This document shows positions 11,190 to 14,207 of a DNA stretch of 64,000 bases, one piece after another (position 1 is the first letter of the stretch; every line of letters begins with the position of its first letter). Source of the DNA: the human T2T-CHM13v2.0 reference genome, Homo sapiens; NCBI RefSeq assembly GCF_009914755.1, contig NC_060929.1; one strand, written 5' to 3'. The notes beneath the pieces are model-generated. The model made no database searches. It was not told where the DNA came from and was given only the letters and a program-made list of their open reading frames with translations. Position numbers and translations under genes: made by a program.

Positions 11190-14100
11190 ATGATGGCTCA
11201 GTCCAACATGCTCCCCGTGGCTGATGTGTTGAGTCAAAATGAACTGCGCAAAAAGCTATACCAGACATTTAAGGATCGGGGTATACTGGAAACACTCAAG
11301 ATACAACTTCGAAACCAGCTAATTCATGAGTTAATGCACCCTGTATTGAGTGGAGAACTGCAACCTCAGTCCATTTCAGTGCAAGGGAGCTCCCTCTTAA
11401 TAAGTGCCTCTAACTCTTTAGTGGCAGATCACTTACAAAGATGTGGCTGTGAATATTCACTTTCTGTTTTCTTTCTAGAAAGTGGTTTGGCAAAAGAAAA
11501 GGTATTTACTATGCAGGATCTATTACAACTCATTAAAATCAACCCTACTTCCAGTCTGTACAAATCACTGGTTTCAGGAGCTGATAAAGAAAACCAAAAA
11601 GGTTTTCTTATGCATTTTTTAAAAGGATTGGCAGAATATCATCAAGCTAAAGAAAGTTGTAATATGGAAACTCAGACAAGTTCGACATTTAGCAGAGATT
11701 CTCTGGCTGAGAAGCTTCAGCTTATTGATGATCAGTTTGCAGATGCTTACCCTCAGCGTATCAAGTTTGAGTCTTTAGAAATAAAGCTAAATGAATATAA
11801 GAGAGAAATAGAAGAGCAACTTCGGGAAGAAATATGTCAAAAGTTGAAGTTTTTTAAAGATACCGAAATAGGAAAAATTAAAATGGAAGCAAAAAAAAAG
11901 TATGAGAAGGAATTAGCCGTGTTCCAGAATGATTTTGAGAAAGCTTGTCAAGCAAAATCTGAAGCCCTTGTTATTCGGGAAAAGAGCACCCTTGAGAGAA
12001 TTCAAAAGCACCAAGAGATTGAAACAAAAGAGATTTATGCTCAAAGGCAACTTTTACTAAAAGATATGGATTTGCTAAGAGGAAGAGAAGCAGAGCTGAA
12101 GCAAAGAGTTGAAGCTTTTGAACTGAACCAGAAGCTCCAGGAAGAAAAACATAAAAGTATGACTGAGGCACTTAGGAGACGGGAGCAGAATATAAAGAGT
12201 TTTGAGAAGACCTATGACCAAAAACTCAAGAATGAACTCCTAAAGTATCAACTTGAACTAAAGGACGACTACATCATTAGAACTAATCGACTGATTGAAG
12301 ATGAAAGGAAGAATAAAGAAAAAGCTGTTCATTTGCAAGAGGAGCTCATAGCTTTTAATTCAAAAAAGGAGGAACTCAATCAATCTATAAATCGCATGAA
12401 AGAACTTGAGCTTGAATTAGAGTCTGTCAAAGCCCAGTCTTTGGCAATAACAAAACAAAACCATATGCTGAATGAAAAGGTTAAAGTGATGAGTGACTAT
12501 TCACTACTAAAAGAAGAGAGACTGGAGCTTCTGGCACAAAATAAATTACTTAAACAACAACTGGAAGAGAGTAGAAATGAAAACTTGCGTCTCCTAAACC
12601 GCCTAGCTCAGCTGGCTCCTGAACTTGCGGTCTTTCAGAAAGAACTAAGGAGAGCAGAAAAGGCTACAGTGGTTGAGCATGAGGAGTTCGAAAGCCGCAA
12701 ACAAGCTCTGCACAAACAACTGCAAGATGAAATTGAGCATACTACACAGTTGAAGGCCCAGATACTAGGTTACAAAGTTTCCATAAAGAGGTTAACTATT
12801 CAGGTTGCCGATTTAAAATCGCAATTGAAGCAAACTCAGACAGCCCTAGAGAATGAAGTGTACTGCAATCCAAAGCAGTCTGTGATCCATCATTCTGCCA
12901 ATGGATTAATAAATGGCAACATGGTGCTTCACAATGGTGAGATAAGTGGGGATTTCTTGAACAATCCTTTTAAACAGGAAAAAGTTCTAGCAGGTACGGT
13001 TGCATCAAGGATCACAAATTATCCAAATGCAGGGATGGAGGGTAGTTCCCCTGATTCTGACCTTGAGTTTGTCGCCAATACTAATGCAAGGGTCAAACAG
13101 CTTCAGCAAGAGGCGGAACGCTTGGAAAAGGCTTTCAGAAGTTACCATCGGAGAGACATTAAAAACTCTGCCAAAGGCCCACTACCAGCAAAGAGCCCAC
13201 CATCTCTGCACTTGCTGGAAGCCTTCAAAAACATTACTTCCAGTTCCCCGGAAAGACGTATTTTTGCAGAGGACAGAGTTGTCTCTGAGCAGCCTCAAGT
13301 GGGCACACTTAAAGAAGAAAGGAATGACATCTTGGAAGCCCTGACAGGCAGTGCAGCCTCAAGGCTATGCGGGGGCACTTCCTCCAGACGCCTCTCCTCC
13401 ACACCCCTTCCAAAAGCAAAAAGAAGCCTTGAAAGTGAAATATATCTGGAAGGTCTGGGCAGATCACACATTGCTTCCCCCAGTCCTTATCCTGACAGAA
13501 TGCCCCCGCCATCACCCGCTGAGTCTAGGCACAACCTCTCCATCCCTCCCTTCTCCAGCCCTCCGGAGCAGAAAGCGGGTCTTTACTGGAGACAAAATGA
13601 ACTTCAAGACAAAAGTGAATTTTCAGATGCGGACAAGCTAGCTTTTAAGGATAACGAGGAATTTGAATCATCTTTTGAATATGCACGGAATGTGCCAAGG
13701 CAGTTTGAAATGGATGGGCCCTCTCCTGCCGGGGATATGCTTCATATGGGCGCAGCTGTAGCTGCTGTGCCCCTCTCATATCAGCACCCAAGTGTAGATC
13801 AGAAACAAATTGAAGAACAAAAGGAAGAAGAAAAAATATGGGAACAGCAAGTGAAAGAACGAAAGCAGAGAGAAGAAAGAAGGCAGAGTAACCTACAAGA
13901 AATTTTAGAAAGGGAAAGAAGAGAACTAGAAAAACTGTATCAGGAAAGGAGGATGACTGAAGAATCACTGAAGATTGAAATGGAAAATGAATTAGAAATG
14001 AGTAATCAAGAAATGAAAGACAAATCTGCTCACAGTGAAAATCCTTTAGAGAAATACATGAAAATCATCCAGCAAGACCAGGAGTCGGCAGATAAGAGCT

Positions 14101-14207
14101 CAAAAAAGATGGTCCAGGAAGGCTCCCTAGTGGACACACTGCAATGTAGTGACAAAGTCGAAAGTTTAACACGCTTTTCTCATGAAGAACCAGATGACTC
14201 TTGGTAA
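11190..14207 (+). CDS. OFD1P17: Intact 1005-aa OFD1-like ORF (N-terminal LisH motif, long coiled coils); translation unproven
   Basis: MMAQSNM...SHEEPDDSW is colinear with recalled OFD1 (1012 aa), roughly 91% identical by hand comparison; no stops or frameshifts. Confidence 0.85.

What the first reader, a model, noticed from the sequence alone, without database searches (positions are those of the whole stretch)
11190..14207. Intact OFD1 retrogene candidate nested antisense inside CPLANE1: one ciliopathy gene carried within another
Seen: an intronless 1005-codon ORF with both UTRs, poly(A) signal and tail, in CPLANE1 intron 16 on the opposite strand. Against OFD1 recalled from memory it has about 90 amino-acid changes but no stop or frameshift. 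Known: OFD1 (X-linked; OFD type I, Joubert type 10) and CPLANE1 (OFD type VI, Joubert type 17) both act at the centriole/basal body, and X-linked genes often spawn autosomal retrogenes that cover meiotic sex-chromosome inactivation. Inference: a 3-kb ORF this diverged would usually have been broken under neutrality, so this locus, which I recall being labelled a pseudogene, may be or have been a protein-coding paralog, plausibly in spermatocytes or spermatids building the flagellum. The retrocopy itself is already annotated; its coding status is the open question.
Basis: partly seen in the sequence, partly recalled or inferred. Interest (0 to 1): 0.9.

Follow-up and report, generated by a model that had tools for sequence, protein, structure and literature searches.

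The report
Conserved OFD1 retrogene labelled a pseudogene
The human "pseudogene" OFD1P17 is an intronless copy of the X-linked ciliopathy gene OFD1 whose full reading frame appears to have been kept by natural selection in apes and Old World monkeys, so it may encode, or until recently have encoded, a second OFD1 protein.

Summary
Window 11190-14207 (+) is an unbroken 1005-codon ORF inside a complete processed copy of OFD1 (10790-14335), antisense in CPLANE1 intron 16. It differs from the X parent at 92 residues and three in-frame indels.

The copy is already in print as a pseudogene (PMC3193505). Its coding status had not been tested in any paper I found.

Evidence for protein-level selection:
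- Predicted OFD1-like proteins of gorilla, two gibbons and five Old World monkeys form one clade with it, 100/100 support.
- Its replacements avoid sites invariant in 43 other mammals: 2/159 against 63/799, p=0.0009. A Y-linked OFD1 pseudogene shows no avoidance: 30/133 against 177/689, p=0.51.
- The N-terminal half has omega 0.42 (p=0.02), like the parent at 0.23, while the Y copy has 1.13.
- Neutral survival of the frame on the human line has joint odds of about 4e-4 to 7e-3.

Limits:
- Whole-gene omega is 0.62, p=0.08.
- Two human-lineage changes weaken the LisH motif, from 51 to 33 bits.
- Expression was not testable here.

Verdict: a selectively maintained retrogene in catarrhines. Present function in humans is about even odds.

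The parts
10780..10793 (+). Upstream A-rich flank, candidate target-site duplication (imperfect)
   Evidence: read by eye against 14336-14344. Homology to the X parent starts at 10790.
10794..11189 (+). 5'UTR-derived segment that keeps CpG-island character. GCGCATGCGC palindrome at 10796-10805. RefSeq 'enhancer' 10905-11064 lies inside it (hub table).
   Evidence: for 10790-11189, GC 0.625, 28 CpG, o/e 0.72, against 0.77 in the parent's 5'UTR and 0.34 in the retro CDS; three upstream ATGs, against one in the parent.
11190..14207 (+). Intact ORF, 1005 codons plus stop, a full-length OFD1 paralog
11412..11492 (+). LisH motif (residues 75-101). Human-lineage changes Y87C (11448-11450) and P96L (11475-11477) lie inside it.
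   Evidence: Pfam LisH_2 32.7 bits (cut-off 27); 51.0-51.2 bits in the gorilla and mandrill copies and in human OFD1..
12125..12244 (+). Equivalent of parental exon 10 (40 codons). Open in human, gorilla and one gibbon model. Absent from all six Old World monkey models, with three different junctions.
14208..14321 (+). 3'UTR-derived segment with AATAAA at 14304-14309
14322..14335 (+). Poly(A) tail remnant
14336..14344 (+). Downstream A-rich flank, candidate target-site duplication (imperfect)
   Evidence: read by eye
8252..15384 (-). Host intron 16 of CPLANE1, on the opposite strand
   Evidence: Hub annotation table: exons 15385-15558 and 8023-8251

Best explanation
OFD1P17 is an L1-type retrocopy of the X-linked centriole and basal-body gene OFD1. 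It was inserted antisense into CPLANE1 intron 16 before apes and Old World monkeys split. It then became a protein-coding retrogene: purifying selection kept the whole 1005-codon frame and, above all, the N-terminal half with its LisH motif and first coiled coils. This is the same regional pattern as in the parent.

Shown here: the anatomy of the copy, one catarrhine clade of open copies, selection on amino-acid sites, and improbable neutral survival of the frame.

Inferred, not shown: it is transcribed from the CpG-rich 5'UTR segment it carried along. It makes an OFD1-like protein that works at centrioles. By analogy with other X-to-autosome retrogenes, it would act in male germ cells when the X is silenced.

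The human copy is still whole. Two human-lineage hits in LisH make present function in humans about even odds.
For: Anatomy:
- All 23 parental exons are joined, with a poly(A) signal and tail.
- No other autosomal match turned up: all 63 matches lie on C5 (the query itself), C23 or C24, with 40 of 144 candidates scored.

Orthologs:
- Of 24 aligned primate proteins, the 10 catarrhine 'like' rows (human, gorilla, siamang, 2 Nomascus models, 5 Old World monkeys) form one clade, 100/100, with species-tree order.
- They are separate from the hominoid X OFD1 clade.
- PMC3193505 (sections 5 and 7 read) places the copy at syntenic sites on human, chimpanzee and orangutan chr5 and rhesus chr6.

Site test, replacements at sites invariant in 43 non-primate mammals against variable sites:
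- Human retro line: 2/159 against 63/799, p=0.00086.
- Catarrhine clade: 11/159 against 153/799, p=7.5e-5.
- Y-linked OFD1 pseudogene control: 30/133 against 177/689, p=0.51.

Codon model with the Y copy as outgroup:
- N-terminal half (448 codons): omega 0.42 for the retro (LRT against 1, p=0.0225), 0.23 for X (p=0.003), 1.13 for Y.
- Y-polarised counts for the retro N-half: S 18, N 17, binomial p=0.0036.
- Retro and X omegas are not distinguishable (p=0.53 whole gene).

Frame survival on the human line:
- The ORF stays open in 1.3-5.0% of neutral simulations.
- P(no frameshift) is 0.03-0.13 at the Y copy's rate of 11 frameshifts per 388 substitutions.
- All three indels against X are in frame.

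Clade level: 166 replacement events predict 9.9 nonsense events if neutral, and none is seen outside the unresolved 40-codon stretch. P(0)=5e-5, P(<=1)=5e-4.

LisH scores 51 bits in the gorilla and mandrill copies, as in the parent.

The 5' segment keeps CpG o/e 0.72.
Against: - The whole-gene test is not significant: omega 0.62, LRT against 1 p=0.083.
- The C-terminal half is at omega 0.98, though the parent is at 0.83 there.
- At the looser conservation threshold (>=0.9) the human line alone is not depleted: 27/475 against 38/483, p=0.2.
- Human terminal branch: 10 unique replacements plus a 2-codon deletion. 6 of the 9 scored lie at >=0.9-conserved sites. 6 of the 10 lie at sites where every other primate row compared agrees. 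Against the rest of the clade, p=0.088.
- LisH drops to 32.7 bits in human.
- All six Old World monkey models lack about 40 residues at the exon-10 equivalent, with three different junctions. This may hide a lesion.
- The other primates are represented by predicted proteins only. Predictors can splice round defects, and I could not read their DNA.
- The retro 5'UTR has three upstream ATGs against one in the parent.
- Slower CpG loss in the 5'UTR than in the CDS is only a trend, p=0.068.
- PMC3193505 reports no promoter signal.
- No expression or peptide evidence was available.
- The half-gene split was taken from that paper's 529/530 boundary, but I ran it after the whole-gene test.
Confidence: 0.72

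Rival explanations
1. Retrogene that has recently died, or is dying, in the human lineage. It was coding and constrained in catarrhines, but constraint was relaxed after the split from gorilla. The human ORF is whole only because too little time has passed. This shares the historical part of the best explanation and differs on the present.
For: - The human terminal branch has 10 unique replacements, and 6 of the 9 scored lie at sites >=0.9 conserved in non-primates. That fits random placement (binomial p=0.34 against availability 475/958).
- It contrasts with the rest of the clade at 57:98 (Fisher p=0.088).
- Y87C and P96L cut the LisH_2 score from 51 to 32.7 bits.
- There is one human-only 2-codon deletion.
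Against: - Numbers are small and neither contrast is significant.
- LisH is still above Pfam's cut-off of 27.
- The single human-lineage indel is in frame.
- Gorilla also has 3 of 7 unique changes at conserved sites, so the human branch is not clearly different.
Confidence: 0.35
2. Ordinary neutral processed pseudogene, never functional, whose long ORF survived by luck. This is the current annotation and the reading in PMC3193505.
For: - Whole-gene omega is not significantly below 1 (p=0.083).
- C-terminal half omega is 0.98.
- The paper found no promoter signal upstream (PMC3193505, section 5).
- P(frame open by substitution alone) is 1.3-5%, which is small but not negligible.
Against: - Replacements avoid conserved sites in the human line and in both 'like' clades, while the Y pseudogene control does not.
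- N-half omega is 0.42, p=0.0225, with Y at 1.13.
- Joint neutral odds of no stop and no frameshift are about 4e-4 to 7e-3.
- 9.9 nonsense events are expected across the catarrhine crown and none is seen outside one 40-codon stretch.
Confidence: 0.1
3. The locus is kept for a non-coding role, for example a regulatory RNA or decoy for OFD1, an antisense regulator of CPLANE1, or the RefSeq-listed enhancer. It is not kept for its protein.
For: - A RefSeq functional element ('enhancer', 10905-11064) lies in the 5' segment (hub table).
- The position is antisense inside CPLANE1.
- The 5' segment keeps its CpG density.
Against: - An RNA-level role does not predict an open frame.
- It does not predict an excess of synonymous over replacement changes in the N-half (S 18, N 17, p=0.0036).
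- It does not predict avoidance of residues conserved in the protein family.
Confidence: 0.05
4. The apparent constraint is produced by gene conversion from the X-linked parent, which keeps refreshing the copy.
For: None found. It was considered because conversion can mimic conservation.
Against: - The catarrhine copies form their own clade with species-tree order. They do not group with the same species' X gene.
- The parent has introns at 22 junctions that the copy lacks.
- Divergence is spread over all exon blocks, 87.5-98.6% identity in the coding blocks.
Confidence: 0.02

Closest known systems
OFD1 (X-linked parent, centriole and centriolar satellite protein)
   Same: - Collinear over the full length, with 912 of 1013 alignment columns identical.
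- The LisH_2 motif sits at the same place.
- Same regional pattern of constraint: N-half constrained, C-half near neutral. This matches the 'regional selection' described for the family in PMC3193505.
   Different: - Intronless, autosomal and antisense in a CPLANE1 intron.
- 92 replacements and three in-frame indels.
- Weaker LisH score in human, 32.7 against 51.2 bits.
- Omega about 0.6 against about 0.5 on the same time span.
- No evidence here that it is expressed.
The 'retroposed autosomal OFD1 pseudogene' of Catarrhini in Chang, Klabnik & Liu 2011 (PMC3193505; abstract, sections 5 and 8, and passages from a term search read)
   Same: It is the same locus: human chr5, with syntenic copies in chimpanzee, orangutan and rhesus (chr6). 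The paper describes it as intronless with ORFs of at least 833 aa, derived from OFD1X and dated to about 54 MYA.
   Different: The paper calls the copies pseudogenes because the upstream region lacks homology to the OFD1X promoter and shows no promoter signal. In the parts I read it does not test constraint on the retro branch. It lists the copies as present in Catarrhini only. My protein tree also shows a separate New World monkey 'like' clade.
X-to-autosome retrogenes used in male germ cells, such as PGK2 from PGK1 and the centriolar CETN1 from X-linked CETN2
   Same: - The parent is X-linked and the copy is an autosomal processed copy with an intact ORF.
- There are signs of purifying selection.
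- The parent's product acts at centrioles, as for CETN1 and CETN2.
   Different: - Testis expression and any germ-line role are untested for this locus.
- It is primate-specific and much younger than PGK2 or CETN1.
- The human copy shows possible relaxation.
Y-linked OFD1 pseudogenes (OFD1P*Y), used here as the neutral comparator
   Same: They derive from the same ancestral gene and have the same codon make-up.
   Different: - The Y copy keeps its introns.
- It has 9 in-frame stops and 11 frameshifting indels over 2724 aligned bases.
- Its omega is 0.95.
- It shows no avoidance of conserved sites, p=0.51.
This is what the chr5 copy should look like if it were neutral, and it does not.

Membership tests
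Processed (L1-mediated) retrocopy | All parental introns are absent and the exons are joined exactly | tested here: met
   23 blocks match 23 X exons with GT/AG-bounded junctions in the parent
Processed (L1-mediated) retrocopy | Poly(A) signal followed by an A tail at the 3' end | tested here: met
   AATAAA at 14304-14309 and an A run at 14322-14335
Processed (L1-mediated) retrocopy | Target-site duplication flanking the insert | tested here: inconclusive
   There are A-rich imperfect direct repeats at about 10780-10793 and 14336-14344 (by eye). Their low complexity makes them weak evidence.
Functional (protein-coding) retrogene | Intact ORF covering the parental CDS | tested here: met
   1005 of the parent's 1012 codons, with no stop or frameshift
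Functional (protein-coding) retrogene | dN/dS significantly below 1 on the retrocopy's own branch | tested here: inconclusive
   Whole gene 0.62, p=0.083. N-terminal half 0.42, p=0.0225. C-terminal half 0.98.
Functional (protein-coding) retrogene | Replacements avoid functionally conserved residues, relative to a neutral control | tested here: met
   2/159 against 63/799, p=0.00086. Y pseudogene control 30/133 against 177/689, p=0.51.
Functional (protein-coding) retrogene | ORF open in orthologs of several species | tested here: inconclusive
   9 further 'like' models from 8 other catarrhine species are open, but they are predicted proteins only. The Old World monkey models skip about 40 residues with three different junctions.
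Functional (protein-coding) retrogene | Transcription and translation from the locus | not testable with these tools
   No expression, CAGE, Ribo-seq or proteomics data are held. The only paper naming OFD1P17 is a TCGA gene list (search listing), and the term was not in the held part of the text.
OFD1 protein family | N-terminal LisH motif | tested here: met
   Pfam LisH_2 at residues 75-101, 32.7 bits against a cut-off of 27. This is weaker than the 51 bits in the parent and in the gorilla and mandrill copies.
OFD1 protein family | Full-length collinearity with OFD1, including the coiled-coil regions | tested here: met
   Global alignment with 912 of 1013 columns identical. The best database hits are all OFD1 or OFD1-like. 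Coiled coils as such were not predicted.
Out-of-X, testis-expressed retrogene (compensation for meiotic X silencing) | Parent on the X, copy on an autosome | tested here: met
   Parent exons lie on G000 C23 and the copy on C5
Out-of-X, testis-expressed retrogene (compensation for meiotic X silencing) | Expression in meiotic or post-meiotic male germ cells | not testable with these tools
   No expression data. A search for OFD1 with 'meiotic sex chromosome inactivation' listed 3 of 4 papers, and from their titles and abstracts none is about this locus.

The most novel reading that the evidence does not exclude
Humans and other anthropoids carry an unannotated, working second OFD1 gene. Autosomal OFD1 retrogenes may have arisen twice, once in stem catarrhines (this locus) and once in New World monkeys. 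Each was then kept open for tens of millions of years. This would be a convergent escape of a centriole and basal-body gene from the X, probably for spermatid flagellum assembly. In humans it could modify OFD1-linked disease or male fertility.
Probability: 0.3. Interest if true: 0.8.

Novelty: new member of a known kind. Interest (0 to 1): 0.6.

Why it matters
OFD1 loss is lethal in males and causes OFD1 syndrome, Joubert syndrome 10 and related ciliopathies.

If an autosomal paralog is real and expressed, several things follow:
- It would be a candidate modifier of those disorders.
- It would be a candidate male-infertility gene.
- It would be a source of cross-mapping reads and peptides in OFD1 diagnostics.

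It would also correct a human annotation. NCBI names the gorilla, gibbon and monkey models 'OFD1-like' proteins, while the human locus is listed as a pseudogene.

It would add a centriolar example to the out-of-X retrogene pattern. The regional constraint, with the N-half kept and the C-half free, matches where male-lethal and milder OFD1 mutations fall according to PMC3193505. The copy is therefore a natural experiment on which part of OFD1 matters.

Tried and rejected
- Solved structures: phmmer of the protein against PDB sequences found 0 hits.
- Upstream promoter: the CpG-rich stretch at about 10220-10520 is an Alu, not a promoter.
- One or two origins of the catarrhine and New World monkey 'like' clades: unresolved. 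The AU test does not reject one clade (p=0.37) or catarrhine-like plus catarrhine-X (p=0.12). Of 6 informative columns, 4 favour grouping by parvorder, 1 favours a single origin and 1 favours the third pattern.
- Old World monkey model holding the exon-10 segment: a region search with residues 296-366 listed 120 of 626 hits, with none from an Old World monkey 'like' protein. The database shows cluster representatives only, so this does not prove absence.
- Gene conversion as the cause of conservation: rejected on tree shape.
- Slower CpG decay in the 5'UTR than in the CDS: only a trend. 9 lost and 22 kept against 27 lost and 26 kept, p=0.068.
- Literature on coding status. Searches: 'OFD1P17' (1 paper, a TCGA list), 'OFD1'+'retrogene' (3), 'OFD1'+'retrocop' (2), 'OFD1 pseudogene' (2), 'OFD1'+'meiotic sex chromosome inactivation' (4), 'OFD1-like' (5). 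Only PMC3193505 treats this locus. PMC13616518 (one passage read) mentions a gorilla Y-linked OFD1-like amplification, which is a different matter.
- Earlier findings of this scan were not open.
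Full report
WHAT IS THERE

Window 11190-14207 (+) is one open frame of 1005 codons. The stretch 10790-14323 aligns in 23 consecutive blocks to 23 exon-sized pieces of X-linked OFD1 in the same genome (C23:13316110-13350658). 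I spliced those pieces at GT/AG sites. The result is a 1012-aa protein that matches database human OFD1 isoform 3, apart from the exon that isoform skips.

The copy therefore carries about 400 bases of 5'UTR, the whole CDS and the 3'UTR. It has AATAAA at 14304-14309 and a 14-base A tail. It is flanked by A-rich, imperfect direct repeats. In the hub's table it lies between CPLANE1 exons 16 and 17 on the opposite strand.

Against the parent it has 92 replacements and three in-frame indels in 1013 columns, and 156 of 3012 bases differ. No other autosomal match was found in this genome. All 63 matches lie on C5 (the query itself), C23 or C24, with 40 of 144 candidates scored.

ALREADY IN PRINT

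Chang, Klabnik & Liu 2011 (PMC3193505; abstract, sections 5 and 8, and term-search passages read) describe this locus. They report an intronless retroposed OFD1 at syntenic sites on human, chimpanzee and orangutan chr5 and rhesus chr6, with ORFs of at least 833 aa, dated to about 54 MYA. They call it a pseudogene because the upstream region shows no promoter signal. They cite an earlier report of the human copy.

In six literature searches I found no paper that tests whether it is coding.

RELATIVES

A protein search returned 951 hits, of which the best 120 were listed. Several are named 'OFD1-like', from gorilla (1007 aa, 98% identical), siamang, Nomascus, Mandrillus, Theropithecus, Colobus, Semnopithecus and Nasalis.

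In a maximum-likelihood tree of 24 primate rows, the 10 catarrhine 'like' rows form one clade (100/100) with species-tree order. They are apart from the hominoid X clade. The copy thus predates the split of apes and Old World monkeys, and it has evolved as one locus since then.

Five New World monkey 'like' proteins (1001-1007 aa) form a second 100/100 clade, apart from the New World monkey X genes. The order of the four clades is unresolved. Four of six informative columns group each 'like' clade with its own parvorder's X gene. That hints at two separate retropositions but does not show them.

TESTS OF SELECTION

1. Pairwise Nei-Gojobori against the parent: dS 0.106, dN 0.0405, ratio 0.38. 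This mixes the two branches.

2. Y copy as outgroup. I fetched a Y-linked OFD1 copy, which is about 15% diverged. Parsimony counts are S 28 and N 43 on the retro branch and S 23 and N 32 on the X branch. Thirteen differences were ambiguous and 17 had no Y base.

3. Three-branch codon model on 853 of 1013 codons.
   - Omega is 0.62 for the retro (against 1: p=0.083), 0.47 for X (p=0.021) and 0.95 for Y.
   - Retro and X do not differ (p=0.53).
   - Even the real gene barely rejects neutrality on this short branch.

4. Split at the 529/530 boundary used in PMC3193505.
   - N-half omega: retro 0.42 (p=0.0225), X 0.23 (p=0.003), Y 1.13.
   - C-half omega: retro 0.98, X 0.83, Y 0.82.
   - The copy mirrors the parent's regional constraint. 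The Y pseudogene does not.

5. Protein-only test, independent of dS. I counted replacements at the 159 scored columns invariant in 43 non-primate mammals, and at the 799 variable columns.
   - Human retro line: 2/159 against 63/799, p=0.00086.
   - Catarrhine 'like' clade: 11/159 against 153/799, p=7.5e-5.
   - New World monkey 'like' clade: 18/159 against 176/799, p=0.0017.
   - Y control: 30/133 against 177/689, p=0.51.
   - At a looser threshold (>=0.9) the clades remain significant (p=0.002 and 3.7e-8). The human line alone is not (27/475 against 38/483, p=0.2).

6. Frame survival on the human line.
   - With kappa 3.6 and tenfold CpG transitions, 4.1% of random mutations in this CDS are nonsense.
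   - Neutral simulations were scaled to the observed synonymous changes or to the branch length. They leave the frame open in 1.3-5.0% of 3000 runs per setting.
   - The Y copy shows 11 frameshifting indels per 388 substitutions. This gives P(no frameshift) of 0.03-0.13.
   - Jointly the odds are about 4e-4 to 7e-3.

7. Clade level.
   - In the catarrhine crown, 166 replacement events predict 9.9 nonsense events if neutral. P(0)=5e-5 and P(<=1)=5e-4.
   - In the New World monkey crown, 197 events predict 11.8.
   - None appears in the predicted proteins, apart from the unresolved stretch described below.

WHAT SPEAKS AGAINST, AND LIMITS

- The whole-gene omega test is not significant.
- The C-terminal half looks neutral, though so does the parent's.
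- All non-human evidence rests on predicted proteins. Predictors can hide defects inside invented introns.
- All six Old World monkey models lack about 40 residues at the exon-10 equivalent (window 12125-12244), with three different junctions. No Old World monkey representative holding the stretch was found. This could be a shared lesion or insertion, or an artefact of modelling on the parent's exon-10-skipping isoform. The rest of those frames is open.
- The human terminal branch has 10 unique replacements and a 2-codon deletion. Six of the 9 scored lie at conserved sites. Y87C and P96L lie in LisH.
- LisH_2 scores 32.7 bits in human. It scores 51.0 in the gorilla copy, 51.1 in the mandrill copy and 51.2 in human OFD1.
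- The contrast with the rest of the clade is only a trend (p=0.088).
- The retro 5'UTR has three upstream ATGs, against one in the parent.
- No expression or peptide data could be consulted.

PROMOTER QUESTION

The copy carried along a CpG-rich 5' segment. Window 10790-11189 has GC 0.625, 28 CpGs and o/e 0.72. The parent's 5'UTR has o/e 0.77 and the copy's own CDS 0.34.

Homology to the X locus starts at 10790. That is 35 bases upstream of where the hub's table starts OFD1P17 (10825).

A perfect GCGCATGCGC palindrome sits at 10796-10805, where the parent has one mismatch. I recall this as an NRF1-type site and did not test it.

RefSeq lists an 'enhancer' at 10905-11064 (hub table).

CpG loss is lower in the 5'UTR than in the CDS: 9 of 31 against 27 of 53, p=0.068. 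This is compatible with a germ-line hypomethylated inherited promoter. It is only suggestive. It also stands against the 2011 paper's 'no promoter signal', which concerned the region upstream of the copy.

MECHANISM PROPOSED

Shown:
- An L1-type retrocopy of an X-linked centriolar gene.
- It has been kept open and constrained at the protein level through catarrhine evolution.

Inferred:
- Transcription from the inherited CpG-rich leader.
- A full-length OFD1-like protein with LisH and coiled coils that acts at centrioles and basal bodies.
- Most plausibly, action in meiotic and post-meiotic male germ cells when the X-linked parent is silenced. This follows the recalled pattern of PGK2 and the centriolar CETN1.

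The nesting in CPLANE1 is most simply a tolerated antisense intronic landing site. Nothing here links the two genes functionally.

VERDICT

I put about 0.7 on selective maintenance as a coding gene in catarrhines and about 0.1 on a lifelong neutral pseudogene.

Present function in humans is open, at roughly even odds, because of the human-lineage LisH changes and the lack of expression data.

The locus is known. The case for coding constraint, the regional mirror of the parent and the parallel New World monkey clade are, as far as my searches show, not in print.

Noticed in passing
Proteins P0008, P0019, P0023, P0024, P0025, P0052; no window coordinates: New World monkeys (Saimiri, Aotus, Callithrix, Saguinus, Plecturocebus, Cebus) have their own 'OFD1-like' proteins of about 1001-1007 aa. 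P0052 from Cebus is a 915-aa isoform and was not in the tree. The five in the tree form a 100/100 clade apart from their X-linked OFD1. Their replacements also avoid conserved sites (18/159 against 176/799). Whether this is the same insertion as the human one or a second, parallel retrogene is unresolved.
   Followed up: partly
Window 12125-12244 (exon-10 equivalent); proteins P0012, P0014, P0016, P0017, P0018, P0062: All six Old World monkey models of the copy omit about 40 residues here, at three different junctions. The gibbon 'X2' models omit exactly the parental exon 10, although another gibbon model (P0005) has it intact. In human DNA the exon-10 equivalent does not begin with GT. These 'introns' are therefore probably modelling choices or hide a lesion.
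   Followed up: partly
Window 10796-10805: There is a perfect GCGCATGCGC palindrome at the very 5' end of the retrocopy. The X parent has GCTCATGCGC at the aligned place. I recall this as an NRF1-type promoter motif and did not test it.
   Followed up: no
Window about 10220-10520: An Alu element lies just upstream of the retrocopy. It accounts for the CpG-rich stretch there and is not a promoter island.
   Followed up: yes
L036-L042 (G000 C24:19579001-19646000): In this Y-linked OFD1 copy two coding exons hit twice: X CDS 411-515 at locus offsets 18796 and 33593, and X CDS 658-828 at 25651 and 35468. This suggests an internal duplication of about 10-15 kb within the Y pseudogene. Many Y copies occur as mirror-image pairs.
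   Followed up: no
Proteins (e.g. P0075, P0098, P0107, P0113, P0116, P0132, P0145, P0173): 'OFD1-like' predicted proteins are also listed for zebra, sloth, otter, badger, deer, wolf and bats. A paper on canid Y retrocopies mentions OFD1 (PMC6523286, search listing only). OFD1 may have been duplicated repeatedly in mammals.
   Followed up: no
Alignment, around retro residue 930 and residue 708: The 6-codon and 1-codon length differences between the copy and human OFD1 appear to be changes on the hominoid X gene, not on the copy. New World monkey X genes and both 'like' clades have the copy's state (by eye). Only the 2-codon deletion near residue 961 is specific to the human copy.
   Followed up: partly
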